From NCBI RefSeq assembly GCF_009914755.1, contig NC_060928.1: DNA of 64,000 nt. The stretch is one strand, 5' to 3'. Made by a program: the position numbers and the translations under genes. The stretch comes from the human T2T-CHM13v2.0 reference genome, Homo sapiens. Position 1 is the first letter of the stretch. Each line of letters begins with the position of its first letter. A model generated the notes under the pieces. The model saw only the letters and a list, made by a program, of their open reading frames with translations. It made no database searches and was not told the DNA's origin. Of the stretch, positions 48,347 to 57,654 are shown piece by piece.

Positions 48347-48478
48347 CTCCAGAGAGCCTTTCTATTTATTTTTCCAAAAAAGAGCAGCACTGGATCAAAT
48401 GAAGTGTGTTCCAAAAGGAACTATTCCATTAATCATACATTTTCCATAATTCTTATTGCAGGATTTCAGGGCAGTCAA
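48347..48478 (-). pseudogene. ADH pseudogene exon 7
   Basis: 132 nt, aacaag|LTALKSCNKNYGKCMINGIVPFGTH/(fs)/SFDPVLLFFG...*KGS..GG|gttaag; matches the ADH exon 7 pattern ALxSCxxxYG...DPMLLFTGRTWKG..GG with indels. Confidence 0.8.
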
Positions 48479-49915
48479 CTTGTTTAAGGTCAGAGAATGA
48501 AAAAGAGAGACTTTTTCATATAAAGACAGCATTTAATTATGGAGTCAGATTTGCTCCTGCTTAGCAATCCCTGGCAAAACCACTCTCCTCCCATTAGTTA
48601 AAATAATCTCTTTTTATCACAATCTGTCCATTAAAATAACCCCCTTTTGTGAGAAAATTACTTACAAATAAAAATAAATGTTCTGTGCACCTAGAAGATC
48701 CCTACGAAGTTTCAATAACTGAGTTTAAGTGCAGAGGATAGCACTTCAACAAAGAATCAAAAGGCAAAATAAACCATAGAGATAAGGCTCAGTGATGAAT
48801 AGCAGTGCTGGAGACTAACTGAATATGTGCTGGAAGTCTCATTTTGCCTTTGTTTGCTGACAGCTGCATTTTCCAACCAACTCAAAGAGCAATGAAAAGA
48901 ACTCTTTTTCCTGACTGAACTCTATGCAAATAGGGAACGTTATTTGGTAGTAAGATGAAGGATGGAAATGACCATGTCATCTTAGATGATTTCCTTCCTA
49001 ATCATCAAGGAAGCAACATTAAGAAGAATCAGACTTATATTTAAGCTTTGTAAAGGCCAAATTTTTTAAAGTTTAGGAAAAATAGGTTAGAGCCCATGGC
49101 TATGTACTCAAGACAATAAGTTGTTTCAAAGGGGAGGAATATTTAAAGGATGAAACTCTGACAATGGATTCTGCAAATGATCTCTGTGAGGAAGAATAGG
49201 GATACACATGTAACGATTCCAACATGGCTGCACTAGAGCTCTTAAAACAGACTTCTCAAAGAAGAGAACAACAAATTAAAGGAGAGCCCTGCTATCCAGG
49301 ATAATAAAATAGAGTCTCGGGACCTATAAGAACAGTGTCTCAAAACTAAAGACCAAAAGAATGACTTGAGACTTTCTTTTTTTAAAAAAAAGTTAAGGGC
49401 AAATAAGGAGGCTTTTAATGTGGTTAATGTTATAATGCTATGTCTCAAACAAGGAAAAAGGAAGAGAAAAGAGTAGCTAGAGAAAGCAGAATTACTCAGG
49501 TCATTTTTCTTACATCTTTTCAGTAAGGAAAACTCTGATAGGTCGATCATGGGTAGACTAAACATTAAGAAACAAATTCTAATACAGGTCAAATGATGGT
49601 AAAATAGCAAGTGGTAGGTTTGAATGCTGGCAAATTATATTCTGGGATACTAAAAGAACCTATCTTTCTGATTGTGGATACATTGAGGAAGGAGAGAGCT
49701 ATCTAAAGGGTGAACATGAGAAACTGCCACTTTTCTGAAAGGGCAATGGCTGCCTTTTCTTGTGTGACATTTCCCCTCACTGGAAGTGTTAATGTAGCAA
49801 CAGCAAGAAAGGGATTCCCTGCTCTTACATAGTGGCTGGATTAGATCATCTTAAAGGCCTCGTCCCAACTCTGAGAGGCTATTAAAAGCCAGATTCCCAG
49901 CAACTGATGGGTTGC

Positions 49916-50282
49916 TGTATTACTCCATTCTCATGCTGCTGATAAATACATACCAAAGACTGGGTAATTTATAAAGGAAAGAGGTTTAATGGACTCACAG
50001 TTCCACATGGCTAGGAAGGCCTCACCATCATGGTGGAAGACAAAGGAAAAGCAAAGAGACATCTCATATGGCACCAGGCAAAGAGAGAGCTTGTGCCAGG
50101 GAACTCCCCTTTATAAAACCATCAGATCTCATGGCACTTATTCACTATCACCAGAACAGCCCAGGAAAGACTTGCCACCATGATTCAATTACCTCCCACT
50201 GGGTCTGTCCCATGACACATGGAATTATAGAAGCTAAAATTAAAGATGAGATTTGGGTGGGGGGACACAGCCAAATCATATT
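49916..50282 (-). mobile_element. THE1-type MaLR solo LTR in pseudogene intron 6
   Basis: gactgggtaatttataaaggaaagaggtttaatggactcacagttccacatggct ... acacagccaaatcatat; gttgc flanks on both sides. Confidence 0.85.
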
Positions 50283-50334
50283 GGTTGCCCAACCATAAAA
50301 TCTGCAATCTTAAAAATTACAGGGGGGAGTACAC

Positions 50335-50587
50335 CTTGGTTTTAACAAAGCCTGTAACTTCAAATACTATGTTGTCACTCATTTCAATGAGCACGTGTCA
50401 GATAGGCTTCTCAAGATCCCTGGAACTAATAACATTCAGCAGCTCCCAGAGATATGGCCTTCTTAAATTTGTTTCTGTTGATGTCAATACCAATGATCCT
50501 GGAAGCACCAGTAGCTTTGCAACCCATAATAATAAAGAGACCAACTTCACCCAGGCCAAACACAGTACAAGTTAGAAAGAATTTGAC
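50335..50587 (-). pseudogene. ADH pseudogene exon 6
   Basis: 253 nt (261+1-9); tttag|[52 protein letters not shown]/(+1 fs)/[31 protein letters not shown]|gt. Confidence 0.9.
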
Positions 50588-54205: not shown

Positions 54206-56454
54206 CTACACACCCACTAGCATGTGGCAAGAATCAAAAAATGAGGATGTAGCAAAATAAGAGCTCTCCTATGCTGCTGGCAGGAGTGTAAAACAGTATG
54301 GCAGTACTCAAACTACAAAACACAGAGTTACCCAGGAAAAATGGTAATGTATGTCCACACAGAATCTTGTATGTGAATATTCATAGAAGCATTATTTACA
54401 ACAGCCAAAATGTAAAAAAAAAAAAAAAAAAAATCCAAATCCTCATCAATTCATGATTGGATAAATAAAATGTGGTATCCACTGGAAAATTATTCAGCCA
54501 TAAAAAGAAATGAAATACTGATACATGTTATAGCATGAATGAACCTTCATGCTAAGTGAAAGAAGCCGGACAGACACCAAAGACTACATATCATATGATT
54601 CAATGTATGCAAAATGTTTAGAATAGGCAAATCTACAGAGACAAAATAGGAGATTGCACATTTCTTAGGGCTTGGTCAGTGGAGGAGGAATGGGGGTAGC
54701 TAAAGAGTACAGAGTTTGTATTTAAGGTGACAAAAACGTTCTATAGCTGACTATGGTGATGGTTGCACATATTTGCAGATATACTAAAAACCATTGAATT
54801 GTCCACTTTAAATGCGTGAATTGTGTGGTGTGTGAAATACACATCAATAGAGTTCTTAATGCATTCAGTAAGTTAGTGGTAAAGACAGAAAGCATTTAAC
54901 AGCTATCTCTCATTGGCACTTGGCAATTTTATACATTAGCCATAGTAGCTCATGAAATATTTTTTTCCCTAAGAAGAGAACTAGGAGAACTCTCTTATTG
55001 TTTATTAAGATTCCTGAGAGGGAAAAGATTTCTGTTACAATATTTACATCTTGATGATAACTGAGGAAACCGCTCAAGAGGTGAAATCTAGTTTTGAAAC
55101 ACAACACTGGGGACATTGGAGATGATGGGCCTGGGAAGAACTGGAGGTAGAGAGGCCGTTAAGCGGCCCCCACCTCAGATCTCACCCAGTAGTCTTGTTA
55201 CCTTCTGAGTGAGGCAAGGTTAAAATTAAGAAGAAGGAAGAAAAGTGAAGACAGTGCTTCAGAGAAAGAGAGGGCTTTTATACCTAAAGAGGAATAGAAA
55301 TTTAACCTGTGAGACACATTGTCCCTAGTCAAATGAATACTAGAACCTCAAATGGCCATGCCTCAGGTCACTTTAGCTAAACCTACTCACTTCACTCCAT
55401 TTGTCAGAAACCCAAAAAGCTGACACCTCTAATTTTTAATTTCATCTCTATGATACTGGTAAAGTAAAATCTTATTAAATCACAGGGAATTTATTCAACT
55501 TTCTGGAACTTGGTTGAAATTATGTTGGATCATTGAACCTCTATCTGACAAGCCACTTCTTTGGGGGAAGTTTTACTGGATGACCATGGAATTGAGTTAC
55601 TATGGTAACTATGTCATATGGGTATAATAAGGGCTGTGTTATTTCAACTTCCAAGATTATCTGGCCTGAGTTTAGGGGCAAGAAACCTAATATTTTGACA
55701 ACATCTGAAAGAAAAAACTATTAGAAGTAAAGAAAATATAGAGGATATTTCTGATTTAAGATGATAAACTGAGCTTACATGTTTAGCTCTTCTCCAAGAG
55801 CAAAAGAATTTTTAAAATATCTATAAATTAATATATATTAATTATATATATTTATATATAATATATAAAAATATATGTACACACACATATATCTCCACTA
55901 TAATGAAGACATAAGGAAGCTCTCATCAGACACCCTAAATATAACCTGGCCAAATTCAAGCTCCCTATAGTGCCTCAAAATCTACGCTTTCCATAGCCTT
56001 CTTTTCTGTAAATTGCAATCCCAATGTACTTACTAGTCTTTCTACCCAAACTTTGAAGTCATCCTGATGCCTTTATTTCTCACACTTTAGCAAGTTCTGT
56101 TGACTCTATCTTCAAAATATACTTAGAATCCAATCACTTTTCACTACTTTCATACTATCATCCTGGTCCAAGCTATCATCACCTCTTGTGTTTACTGCTA
56201 TAATAACATCCTAACTTGCCTCCTACTTCCACCTTTATTTCCTCCTCATCTCTTTTTTTCAGTATGGCAGCTGAGTGTTCCTTTTAAACATATAAGAATG
56301 CTTATCATTTTTACTCAAAATCATTTAGGAGTAAAAGTCCTTACAGTGTACTACAGTGTTCTACTTCATGTCCATTTAAAACACACTATTTAATTAAATG
56401 AGGCTTTATGTGTATCTTCTTTGTTTAAATTTGTATCTGTCATTTTCAATTTAT

Positions 56455-57266
56455 TCTTTTTTAGTTTAACTTTTATTTTAAGTTCAGGGATACATATGCA
56501 GGTGTGTCAAATAGGTAAACTTGTGCCCTGGGGGTTTGTCATACATATTATTTCTTCACCCAGGTATTAAGCCTAGCACTGATCTTCTCCTTCCTCCCAC
56601 TCTCCACCCTGCAATAGGCAATTGAAGAAACTTTTCAAAAGAAGATATACATGCAGCCGGCAATCATGAAAAAACACTCAACATCACTGATCATTAGAGA
56701 AATGCAAATCAAAACCACAAAGAGATACCATCTCACACCAGACAGAATGACTGTTATTAAAAAGTCAAAAAATAACAGATTCTGGTGAGATTGTGAAGAA
56801 AAACGGATGCTTATACACTGTTGGTAGGAGCGTAAAATTAGTTTGACCACTGTAGAAGATGGTTTTTGTGATTCCTCAAATTCCTAAAGACAGAAATACC
56901 ATTTGTTCCAGGAATCCCATTACTGGGTATACCCAAAGGAATATAAATTGTTCTATCATAAAGACAGAGGCACACGTATGTTTACTGTAGCACTATTCAC
57001 AATAGCAAAGACATGAAGTCAACCTAAATCAATGGTAGACTGGATAAAGAAAATGTGTTACATGTACACCATGGAATACTGTGCAGCCATAAAAAAGAAC
57101 AAGATCATGTCCTTTTCCGGGAACATGGGTGGAGCTGGAGGCAATTATCCTTAGCAAACTAACTCAGGAACAGAGAACCAAATACCACATGTTCTTACTT
57201 ATAAGGGGGAGCTAAATGATGAGAACACATGGACACATAGAGGGGAACAATACACACTGGGGCCTA
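56455..57266 (-). mobile_element. Short 5'-inverted old L1 (3' end minus 56455-56619; inverted part plus 56627-57266)
   Basis: Plus part ends ...acactggggccta and the minus part begins (in L1 sense) gcctattgcagggtgg, contiguous in the L1 3'UTR. Confidence 0.8.
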
Positions 57267-57515
57267 GCTTTCTTTTTATCTTGTTCACTGTCACCAGAAT
57301 GTAAGTTCTATGAGAGGAGAGATTTGGTTCTTTAATTTTTAAAAAAGATTCAGCACCAAACTATTACTTAGCAGATAGTTGGCACTAAATATACACTAGT
57401 CAAATCTATGATAGGATGAAGATCATACTGGAATTCCTCTTTCCAATCTGTAAACTGTCAGAAACCACCACCCCCCAACACTATTTGACAAGTCTCTACT
57501 TTTGTGTTATTTTAC

Positions 57516-57654
57516 CTGGTTTTACCTTTCTCACTCCTTTTCCAATACTCTCTACAATTCCAGCTGCTTCGTGTCCTAGAAGAAATGGATATTTAGTTTT
57601 TAATTTTCCATTAATTGCACAGTCGTCTGTGCCACAAAAGCTGATGGCCAGAAT
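57516..57654 (-). pseudogene. ADH pseudogene exon 3 (still open)
   Basis: 139 nt, tcacag|ATT CTG GCC ... CCA G|gtaaa; ILAISFCGTDDCAINGKLKTKYPFLLGHEAAGIVESIGKGVRKVKP (27/46 aa identical to ADH7 exon 3 by hand count). Confidence 0.92.

What the first reader, a model, noticed from the sequence alone, without database searches (positions are those of the whole stretch)
48347..57654. Hidden extra ADH gene relic (exons 3-7) upstream of ADH7: a candidate lost member of the human ADH cluster
Seen: five minus-strand exon remnants at 57654-57516, 52810-52735, 52653-52437, 50587-50335 and 48478-48347. They are in ADH exon order and phase, and their sizes reconcile to 139/88/220/261/136 nt once the visible indels are counted. 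The ORF track shows only two small pieces. Known: the human cluster is described as seven co-oriented genes with ADH7 at the 5' end. Inference: this is an eighth, intron-containing tandem locus beyond ADH7 that died in the lineage leading to humans. I cannot tell whether it is already annotated.
Basis: partly seen in the sequence, partly recalled or inferred. Interest (0 to 1): 0.85.

Follow-up and report, generated by a model that had tools for sequence, protein, structure and literature searches.

The report
Dead eighth ADH gene beside ADH7
Upstream of human ADH7 lie the decayed but still intron-separated exons of an extra, ancient alcohol dehydrogenase gene that is absent from the RefSeq gene table, a fossil that helps reconstruct how the mammalian ADH cluster grew and shrank.

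Summary
All five minus-strand exon remnants sit at the stated coordinates and match exon profiles built from the seven human ADH genes (nhmmer E 4e-21, 5e-5, 2e-33, 8e-41, 6e-9). Their order, phase and indel-corrected sizes (139/88/220/261/136 nt) are correct, and all 10 splice dinucleotides are intact.

I also found a probable exon 2, 21.7 kb further upstream and outside the window (E 1e-13). Exons 1, 8 and 9 were not found.

The relic is an unprocessed pseudogene. Exons 2-7 carry 1 in-frame stop and 9 indels, and His51, Cys97, Cys100 and Gly202 are lost.

It is not a recent copy. It is 58-66% identical to every human ADH and belongs to the class I/IV/V radiation. Its best placement, weakly supported, is sister to ADH7 (bootstrap 88/67/56/52). 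It shares the position-60 deletion of classes I, IV and VI.

Stops and splice sites fit death after a long functional period. Decay along the whole branch is about 800 times less likely.

I could not test whether it is the primate-lost class VI or an ADH7-like paralogue, because no non-human vertebrate sequence was available. A second relic, an exon 2 remnant, lies between ADH6 and ADH1A.

The RefSeq table lists nothing here, and GENCODE could not be checked.

The parts
57655..64000 (-). The in-window part of the inferred intron 2. The intron is 21.7 kb, repeat-rich, and runs past the window end. It leads to a probable exon 2 remnant that lies OUTSIDE the window, at window-equivalent 79367-79466 (= L034:5367-5466 = C4:102813367-102813466, minus strand; 100 nt of the canonical 102).
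   Evidence: Exon 2: the whole-genome exon 2 search gives 58% over 24 aa, genome-wide E 0.5, on the correct strand 21.7 kb upstream of exon 3. nhmmer on the fetched 10 kb gives E 1e-13 over profile positions 1-98 of 102, with no other ADH exon in that 10 kb. It has one 2-nt deletion, a donor changed from GT to AC, and a 1-nt loss at the acceptor boundary. Assignment to the same gene is an inference. Intron: an Alu-like sequence abuts exon 3 (the hub's masked stretch 57661-57972). Repeat-like, multi-target blastn hits lie at 58.3-62 kb. An L1 ORF1-like stretch lies at window-equivalent 64329-64375.
57516..57654 (-). Exon 3 remnant, 139 nt. No indel and no stop. Codons for Cys46, His67 and Glu68 are kept; His51 is now Cys.
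   Evidence: (E 3.9e-21). Pfam ADH_N above cutoff. AG/GT intact.
52735..52810 (-). Exon 4 remnant, 76 nt. An in-frame 12-nt deletion removes residues 91-94, including Phe93. Structural-zinc ligands Cys97 and Cys100 are now Tyr and Ser; Cys103 and Cys111 are kept.
   Evidence: (E 5.2e-05). AG/GT intact.
52437..52653 (-). Exon 5 remnant, 217 nt. Two frameshifting deletions (2 nt near codon 149, 1 nt near codon 180). The Cys174 codon is kept. Intron 4 is only 81 nt, as in ADH7 (97 nt).
   Evidence: (E 2.1e-33). AG/GT intact.
50335..50587 (-). Exon 6 remnant, 253 nt. A 1-nt insertion at codon 240/241, TGA at codon 251 and a 9-nt deletion (codons 263-265). Gly202 of the GxGxxG coenzyme motif is now Glu; Asp223 is kept.
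   Evidence: (E 7.9e-41). Pfam ADH_zinc_N E 3.7e-7. AG/GT intact.
48347..48478 (-). Exon 7 remnant, 132 nt. Two 2-nt deletions. This is the most diverged exon (45-55% nt identity to the paralogues).
   Evidence: (E 6e-09). AG/GT intact.

Best explanation
This is the decayed, non-functional remnant of an extra tandem member of the vertebrate zinc-dependent (MDR) alcohol dehydrogenase cluster. It is an unprocessed pseudogene that keeps the family's exon-intron structure. Exons 3-7 lie in the window, and a probable exon 2 lies 21.7 kb further upstream.

Origin (inferred): tandem duplication within the ADH1-derived group (classes I, IV, V/VI) at about the time those classes separated in early mammals. 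Its best-supported position among the human genes is as sister lineage to class IV (ADH7), its physical neighbour.

History (inferred): it stayed an open, spliced gene for a long time, probably evolving fast under weak constraint. It was then inactivated and has since drifted neutrally for roughly 0.06-0.10 substitutions per site. By recalled human-lineage calibrations that is some tens of millions of years, around the stem of primates or somewhat earlier.

Present state: it cannot encode an ADH. There are five frameshifts within exons 3-7 (two more in exon 2) and one stop. It has lost His51, two of the four structural-zinc cysteines, Phe93 and a glycine of the coenzyme-binding motif, and no recognisable exons 1, 8 or 9 remain.

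Shown: homology, structure, lesions, and that it is not a recent copy. Inferred: the sister relation to class IV, a functional past, the date of death, and that exon 2 belongs to the same gene.
For: Homology and structure. All 10 splice dinucleotides of exons 3-7 are intact. Exon sizes and phases equal the family's once indels are counted. Intron 4 is 81 nt, against 97 nt in ADH7.

Not processed and not recent: introns are present. Non-exon similarity to the other ADH genes is confined to multi-target, both-orientation (repeat-like) hits. Nucleotide identity over exons 2-7 is 66.2% to ADH7, 61-62% to ADH1A/B/C, 61.0% to ADH6, 60.7% to ADH4 and 58.0% to ADH5.

Placement: (ADH7, relic) is recovered in 5 of 5 trees, with bootstrap 88 (nt, exons 3-7), 88 (nt, exons 2-7), 67 (codon positions 1+2), 56 (protein) and 52 (RY coding). 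The AU test rejects sister-to-class-I (p 0.003) and sister-to-class-II (p 0.006). Exon 3 is 139 nt, like ADH1 and ADH7 and unlike the 142 nt of ADH4, ADH5 and ADH6. This is the position-60 deletion that Borras et al. 2014 give for class I and its derivatives class IV and class VI (PMC4028059, section 19 read).

Lived, then died: the terminal branch is 0.37 substitutions per site. Yet there is only 1 in-frame stop in about 315 codons, and only 2 of 24 splice nucleotides have changed. The joint likelihood of those two counts peaks at d = 0.06-0.10 and is about 800-fold lower at d = 0.36.
Against: Support for the class IV sister position is weak outside the all-sites nucleotide trees (52-67). The AU test does not reject sister-to-class-V (p 0.26-0.29) or a position basal to classes I/IV/V (p 0.18).

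The ratio of branch length at codon positions 1+2 to position 3 is 0.74 (bootstrap 0.55-1.04), against 0.27 for ADH7. Taken alone, that model gives a neutral phase of 0.31 (0.19-0.43) substitutions per site and does not exclude neutrality along the whole branch. This disagrees with the lesion clocks.

The relic's GC content (38.3%) has almost reached the local background (36.3%), and only 3 CpGs remain. That also suggests long decay, or a long period of weak constraint.

The relic carries 0 of 5 class IV signature residues from Ostberg 2016 Table 1 (Met141, Ser255, Thr265, Pro295, Lys299).

Recognisable exons may be a biased, less-decayed sample. The indel-to-substitution ratio and the time calibrations are recalled, not computed. 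Exon 2 could belong to a separate, further relic.
Confidence: 0.7

Rival explanations
1. It is the remnant of class VI ADH, the one mammalian class reported as present in other mammals but absent from primates. It ended up on the ADH7 side of the cluster in the primate lineage, or it always lay there outside rodents.
For: Class VI is reported absent from primates only (PMC4960878 passages; PMC4028059 Conclusions passage). The estimated date of death fits a loss near the primate stem (plus recalled calibrations). The relic has the position-60 deletion that Borras et al. ascribe to classes I, IV and VI. Several short motifs resemble the class V gene ADH6, to which class VI was originally assigned (the two were first believed to be one class): SCN..YG.C, C.QF, LFF.G and KFKKA. 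At Ostberg's signature sites the relic is one base change from the class VI residue at 255 (Ile vs Met/Val), 295 (Val vs Ala) and 299 (Thr vs Ser), and matches it at 50 and 305. The AU test does not reject a sister relation to class V.
Against: In mouse, the class V/VI genes (Adh6a, Adh6b, Adh6-ps1) lie between Adh1 and Adh4, not 5' of Adh7 (PMC8369952 passages). Borras et al. speak of a common position of the ADH5-ADH6 loci within the cluster. A separate old exon 2 remnant sits in exactly that expected place in human, between ADH6 and ADH1A. Every tree places the relic with ADH7 and not with ADH6. His51 (100% in class VI) and Phe141 are not matched. No class VI sequence could be compared.
Confidence: 0.15
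2. It was dead on arrival: a partial or defective tandem copy made in early mammals. It never encoded an enzyme and has drifted neutrally ever since.
For: The codon-position ratio of 0.74 has an interval that includes 1. GC content has relaxed to background and CpGs are depleted. Exons 1, 8 and 9 are undetectable, as expected for a truncated copy.
Against: With a terminal branch of 0.36-0.37 substitutions per site, simulation gives P(at most 1 stop) of 0.02-0.075 at d = 0.32 and 0.007-0.033 at d = 0.40. The joint likelihood of 1 stop and 2 of 24 changed splice nucleotides is about 800-fold lower at d = 0.36 than at its peak. Only 9 indels are seen in about 946 nt. All 10 splice dinucleotides of exons 3-7 survive.
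Confidence: 0.12
3. The remnants are still used, for example as exons of a spliced non-coding transcript or as regulatory DNA for ADH7. That would explain why the splice sites are so well preserved.
For: 10 of 10 splice dinucleotides of exons 3-7, with pyrimidine-rich tracts, are intact despite 34% nucleotide divergence from the nearest paralogue.
Against: The RefSeq table supplied with the finding lists no transcript, lncRNA or functional element over 48-58 kb. Exon bodies carry frameshifts and deletions. No expression or conservation data could be consulted. A fairly recent death explains the splice sites equally well.
Confidence: 0.04

Closest known systems
Human ADH7 (class IV, sigma/mu ADH), the neighbouring gene
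   Same: Same strand and same exon-intron plan. It has the highest identity to the relic (66.2% nt over exons 2-7; 54.7% aa frame-corrected over exons 3-7). It shares the 139-nt exon 3 (position-60 deletion), has a short intron 4, and is the relic's sister in all five trees.
   Different: The relic lacks the class IV one-codon deletion at the start of exon 5 (ADH7 is 217 nt; the relic's indel-corrected size is 220 nt). It carries none of the 5 class IV signature residues checked. The divergence is at inter-class level, and the relic is broken.
Mammalian class VI ADH (rodent Adh6a/Adh6b; 'ADH6' in the Duester/Borras naming), absent from primates
   Same: It is the only ADH class described as lost in the primate lineage, and it is said to share the position-60 deletion. 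Several relic residues are identical to, or one step from, the class VI signatures.
   Different: Its expected chromosomal position, between class I and class V/II, does not match. The trees favour ADH7. Direct sequence comparison was not possible.
Extra ADH7 paralogues reported in bats (two genes) and marsupials (three genes)
   Same: These are intact ADH7-like extra copies in other mammals (PMC10336374 passages). They are what a living relative of this relic would look like.
   Different: The bat copy is interpreted there as a bat-ancestor duplication. I saw no positions or sequences, so orthology is untested.
Mouse Adh6-ps1 (class V unprocessed pseudogene in the Adh cluster)
   Same: It is an intron-bearing pseudogene inside the ADH cluster that lacks multiple exons (PMC4960878 and PMC8369952 passages).
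   Different: It is a different class in a different place, it is annotated and transcribed in mouse, and its human counterpart (ADH6) is intact.
Human ADH5 retrocopies on other chromosomes (C6, C1, C5)
   Same: They are ADH-derived pseudogene-like sequences in the same genome.
   Different: They are intronless, class III derived and lie outside the cluster. One on C6 keeps a 380-aa open frame.

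Membership tests
Vertebrate zinc-dependent MDR alcohol dehydrogenase gene cluster (classes I-VI) | Sequence homology to the ADH_N and ADH_zinc_N domains | tested here: met
   Pfam ADH_N 38.9 bits (cutoff 23.5). ADH_zinc_N 30.6 bits (cutoff 31.8, E 3.7e-7). 2 of the 4 pieces scanned matched. PDB best hits are human class I and class IV ADH.
Vertebrate zinc-dependent MDR alcohol dehydrogenase gene cluster (classes I-VI) | Conserved exon sizes, phases and intron positions, in cluster orientation | tested here: met
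   Exons 3-7 reconcile to 139/88/220/261/136 nt. There are 10 of 10 AG/GT pairs. The relic is on the minus strand, like all 7 genes.
Vertebrate zinc-dependent MDR alcohol dehydrogenase gene cluster (classes I-VI) | Catalytic zinc ligands Cys46, His67 and Cys174 (horse ADH numbering; the identity of the ligands is recalled) | tested here: met
   All three codons are present in the frame-corrected translation.
Vertebrate zinc-dependent MDR alcohol dehydrogenase gene cluster (classes I-VI) | Structural zinc ligands Cys97, 100, 103 and 111, and the GxGxxG coenzyme motif (199-204) | tested here: not met
   Cys97 is Tyr and Cys100 is Ser, so 2 of 4 ligands are kept. Gly202 is Glu. This is expected for a dead gene.
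Vertebrate zinc-dependent MDR alcohol dehydrogenase gene cluster (classes I-VI) | Intact open reading frame across 9 exons (functional member) | tested here: not met
   Exons 2-7 carry 1 stop, 7 frameshifting indels and 2 in-frame deletions. Exons 1, 8 and 9 were not found.
Class IV ADH (ADH7) | Groups with class IV in phylogeny | tested here: inconclusive
   The relic is sister to human ADH7 in 5 of 5 trees, with bootstrap 52-88. The AU test leaves the class V sister and basal positions open. No non-human class IV sequences were available to show whether it falls inside or outside the class.
Class IV ADH (ADH7) | Class IV signature residues Met141, Ser255, Thr265, Pro295, Lys299 (Ostberg 2016, Table 1) and the 217-nt exon 5 | tested here: not met
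   The relic has Pro141, Ile255, a deletion or Val at 265, Val295 and Thr299, so 0 of 5 match. Exon 5 reconciles to 220 nt, not 217.
Class VI ADH | Position-60 deletion shared with classes I and IV (Borras 2014) | tested here: met
   Exon 3 is 139 nt, as in ADH1A/B/C and ADH7. It is 142 nt in ADH4, ADH5 and ADH6.
Class VI ADH | Class VI residues Asp/Asn50, His51, Phe141, Met/Val255, Ala265, Ala295, Ser299, Ala/Pro305 (Ostberg 2016, Table 1) | tested here: inconclusive
   2 of 8 match (Asp50, Pro305). 3 are one base change away (Ile255, Val295, Thr299). 2 do not match (Cys51, Pro141). 1 is deleted or ambiguous (265).
Class VI ADH | Position in the cluster next to class V, between class I and class II | tested here: not met
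   The relic lies 5' of ADH7, at the opposite end from ADH6 and ADH4 (literature passages). A different exon 2 remnant occupies the expected interval.
Class VI ADH | Clusters with class VI sequences of other mammals | not testable with these tools
   No vertebrate protein or genome collection other than the human assembly was available (one search found nothing).
Class I ADH | Groups with ADH1A/B/C | tested here: not met
   The AU test rejects sister-to-class-I (p 0.008 for exons 3-7, 0.003 for exons 2-7). 0 of 5 class I signature residues match (Leu141, Lys255, Ser265, Pro295, Gln299).
Unitary pseudogene (no functional counterpart in the genome; functional orthologue elsewhere) | Intact syntenic orthologue in another species | not testable with these tools
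   No other vertebrate genome is held. states that the assembly has no relatives here.

The most novel reading that the evidence does not exclude
The relic is the human fossil of a seventh mammalian ADH lineage, a sister of class IV that was still a working gene in early placental mammals. It would be orthologous to the 'second ADH7' of bats and to one of the three marsupial ADH7 paralogues. If so, those extra copies are ancestral survivors and not lineage-specific duplications. The ancestral therian cluster would then have been larger than the six classes now recognised, with at least two independent losses on the way to humans (this locus, and the exon 2 remnant between ADH6 and ADH1A).
Probability: 0.3. 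Interest if true: 0.6.

Novelty: new member of a known kind. Interest (0 to 1): 0.42.

Why it matters
The human ADH cluster is a textbook seven-gene tandem array, used for models of gene-family growth, alcohol-related genetics and diet-driven selection on ADH7.

A datable fossil of an eighth gene at the ADH7 end, plus a second fragment where class VI is expected, gives physical anchors for reconstructing which classes existed in early mammals and when primates lost them. It also makes testable whether the 'extra ADH7' genes of bats and marsupials are ancient.

In practice, an unannotated stretch of ADH-like exons 32-63 kb upstream of ADH7 can attract cross-mapping reads or probes, and should be considered when interpreting association and selection signals in the ADH7-C4orf17 interval.

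It is not a functional human gene. Pseudogene relics in tandem clusters are common, so the surprise is moderate.

Tried and rejected

2. Large protein database with the exon 6 piece, longer proteins allowed: 13 candidates, none significant. It evidently holds no vertebrate ADH, so it was useless for class assignment.

Supplements of PMC4960878 and PMC10336374 were not requested afterwards and may also bear on class assignment.

4. Exon 8 and exon 2 inside the window: nhmmer found nothing at E < 0.1. Sensitive tblastn gave a best exon-8-like hit at 32062-31976 (E 0.039 with 7 queries), which lies in an L1 ORF2-like stretch and was rejected. A whole-genome exon 8 search found the 7 genes and 4 hits on other chromosomes, but none near the relic.

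5. An exon-5-like hit at window-equivalent 64329-64375 (E 0.025) is an L1 ORF1-like stretch that mimics the TCKGKPI motif, and was rejected.

6. Colinear intron homology between the relic and the other ADH genes: I saw only repeat-like hits to several genes in both orientations. Target coordinates were not checked one by one.

7. Compositional artefact as the cause of the ADH7 affinity: the relic is AT-rich (38% GC) and the most AT-rich paralogue is ADH4 (44.8%), yet RY coding still recovers ADH7.

Only ADH6-ADH1A and the 20 kb beyond the window were scanned. ADH5-ADH4, ADH4-ADH6, ADH1A-1B, 1B-1C and ADH1C-ADH7 were covered only by the exon-wise whole-genome searches, which showed no further cluster hits.

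9. Literature: 8 full-text searches found no description of an ADH relic 5' of ADH7. The symbol search returned only yeast protein names. Janiak et al. 2020 is not held.

10. No structure prediction was run, because a fold of a frameshifted relic would add nothing.

Full report
OBSERVATION

First, tblastn with the ADH7 exon 1-6 protein, assembled from the window by the hub's annotation, hits 57657-57514 (58% identity, E 8e-13), 52829-52545 and 52606-52457 (exons 4/5 in two frames), and 50587-50432 (67%, E 2e-17).

Second, the exon 3 and exon 6 pieces match solved human class I and class IV ADH chains at the expected residues 40-86 and 192-240 (E 3e-14 and 5e-18). Pfam gives ADH_N above its cutoff and ADH_zinc_N just below it (2 of 4 pieces matched).

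Third, I fetched the seven human ADH genes from the held assembly and defined their exons 2-8 by splice sites and phase. I then built one nucleotide profile per exon. Over the window plus 10 kb beyond it, the relic is hit on the minus strand with E 3.9e-21 (exon 3), 5.2e-05 (exon 4), 2.1e-33 (exon 5), 7.9e-41 (exon 6) and 6e-09 (exon 7). Apart from ADH7's own exons, nothing else reached E < 0.025.

- Exon 3: 139 nt, no indel.
- Exon 4: 76 + 12 = 88 nt.
- Exon 5: 217 + 2 + 1 = 220 nt.
- Exon 6: 253 - 1 + 9 = 261 nt.
- Exon 7: 132 + 2 + 2 = 136 nt.

All five acceptors are AG and all five donors are GT.

EXTENT

Exons 2 and 8 are not detectable inside the window. Two tempting weak hits turned out to be L1 coding sequence: 64329-64375, and 32062-31976.

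A whole-genome search with ADH7's exon 2 returned, besides the known genes and retrocopies, one weak hit at C4:102813395-102813466 on the minus strand, 21.7 kb upstream of relic exon 3. After fetching that stretch, the exon 2 profile matches it at E 1e-13 over positions 1-98 of 102, and no other ADH exon is found in those 10 kb. This remnant is 100 nt. It has a 2-nt deletion, a donor changed from GT to AC, and one base lost at the acceptor boundary.

I take it as the relic's own exon 2, which is an inference. That makes the locus about 31 kb long (window-equivalent 48347-79466), with a repeat-filled intron 2. Exon 8 was not found anywhere near by a whole-genome search. Exons 1 and 9 are too short to search for.

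WHAT IT IS

It is an unprocessed pseudogene. Frame-corrected against the paralogues, exons 3-7 show:
- One in-frame TGA (codon 251, horse ADH numbering).
- Five frameshifting indels.
- Two in-frame deletions, of residues 91-94 (including Phe93) and 263-265.
- Replacements His51Cys, Cys97Tyr, Cys100Ser and Gly202Glu.

The codons for Cys46, His67, Cys174 and Asp223 survive.

In the genome-wide exon 6 search it is an eighth cluster locus beside the seven genes.

HOW OLD, AND RELATED TO WHAT

Nucleotide identity over exons 2-7 is 66.2% to ADH7, 61-62% to ADH1A/B/C, 61.0% to ADH6, 60.7% to ADH4 and 58.0% to ADH5. For scale, ADH7 against ADH1 is 70%. So it is not a recent copy of anything, and it does not nest in the primate ADH1A/B/C clade (bootstrap 100).

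ML trees rooted on class III put it inside the class I/IV/V group (bootstrap 89-99) and as sister to ADH7 in all five analyses. Support is 88 (nucleotides, with or without exon 2), 67 (codon positions 1+2), 56 (protein) and 52 (RY coding). AU tests reject a sister relation to class I (p 0.003-0.008) and class II (p 0.005-0.006). They do not reject class V (p 0.24-0.30) or a basal position (p 0.10-0.18).

A rare-change marker agrees. Exon 3 is 139 nt, as in ADH1 and ADH7, and not 142 nt as in ADH4, ADH5 and ADH6. This is the position-60 deletion that Borras et al. 2014 give for class I and its derivatives class IV and class VI (PMC4028059, section 19 read).

The relic does not share ADH7's one-codon deletion in exon 5. 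It also carries none of the five class IV signature residues of Ostberg et al. 2016, Table 1 (passages read; residues). So it is best described as a separate lineage next to class IV, not as a class IV gene.

DID IT EVER WORK?

Two kinds of evidence pull apart.

Branch lengths estimated separately for codon positions give a ratio (positions 1+2 over position 3) of 0.74 for the relic (bootstrap 0.55-1.04), against 0.27 for ADH7. A simple two-phase model then assigns 0.31 (0.19-0.43) substitutions per site to neutral decay. GC content has fallen to 38.3%, close to the 36.3% of the surrounding introns.

Against this, lesions that only accumulate after death are few: 1 stop in about 315 codons, 2 of 24 splice nucleotides changed, and 9 indels in about 946 nt. 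In simulation, the joint likelihood of the stop and splice counts peaks at 0.06-0.10 substitutions per site. It is about 800-fold lower at 0.36, the length of the whole terminal branch. Adding indels at a recalled ratio of one per ten substitutions sharpens this further.

My reading is a long-lived but weakly constrained gene that died late. By recalled human-lineage calibrations this was some tens of millions of years ago, near the primate stem or somewhat earlier. A copy that never worked is disfavoured but not excluded. Recognisable exons may also be a biased sample.

CLASS VI OR AN ADH7-LIKE PARALOGUE?

The literature says class VI is the one mammalian class missing in primates. It also says bats have a second ADH7 gene and marsupials have three ADH7 paralogues (PMC10336374 passages).

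Position argues against class VI. In mouse, the class V/VI genes lie between Adh1 and Adh4 (PMC8369952 passages). When I scanned the human ADH6-ADH1A interval, I found a separate old exon 2 remnant there (see the next section). That fragment is the better candidate for the class VI fossil.

I could not compare either relic with class VI, bat or marsupial sequences.

THE SECOND RELIC

The fragment lies at C4:102554737-102554820 on the minus strand (nhmmer E 7e-08). It is 84 nt with an 18-nt internal deletion, and AG and GT still flank it.

KNOWN OR NEW?

The RefSeq table supplied with the finding lists nothing between ADH7 and C4orf17. Eight full-text searches found no description of an ADH relic 5' of ADH7. 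Papers that describe the cluster speak of seven human genes (passages). GENCODE and pseudogene databases could not be consulted, so prior annotation remains possible.

VERDICT

This is a real, well-preserved fossil of an extra ADH gene. It is a new member of a known kind (an unprocessed, possibly unitary, pseudogene in a tandem cluster), and it is of moderate interest for the history of the mammalian ADH family. The decisive work is comparative: synteny and phylogeny with non-primate mammals.

Noticed in passing
Outside the window: C4:102554737-102554820, minus strand (in L030; ADH6-ADH1A intergenic interval): A second ADH relic. It is an 84-nt exon 2 remnant (18-nt internal deletion) still flanked by AG and GT; nhmmer E 7e-08. 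Weak colinear exon-7-like and exon-8-like hits lie near 102540109 (E 0.46) and 102539112 (E 0.15). It sits where rodents carry class VI, so it is a candidate fossil of the primate-lost class VI gene.
   Followed up: partly
L009 (C6:66988169-66991309), minus strand: An intronless ADH5-derived retrocopy on chromosome 6 keeps an uninterrupted 380-residue open frame covering the whole ADH5 protein. I used it only as a full-length query. Whether it is expressed was not examined.
   Followed up: no
window 31976-32062 (-), and L028:329-375 (-) = window-equivalent 64329-64375: L1 ORF2-like and ORF1-like coding remnants give borderline false matches to ADH exon 8 and exon 5 (an ORF1 motif mimics the ADH TCKGKPI motif). 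This is a trap for relic hunting in this interval.
   Followed up: yes
window 57661-57972: An Alu-like insertion lies only 6 bases upstream of the relic's exon 3 acceptor region (the hub's masked stretch). Being primate-specific, it must postdate any need for normal splicing of intron 2, or at least have been tolerated.
   Followed up: no
C15:42655406-42655549 (-) and C15:42851300-42851443 (+): The relic's exon 3 piece weakly matches two identical-scoring inverted loci on chromosome 15 (43% identity, E 0.009). These are presumably a duplicated, more distant MDR dehydrogenase gene pair. Their identity was not checked.
   Followed up: no
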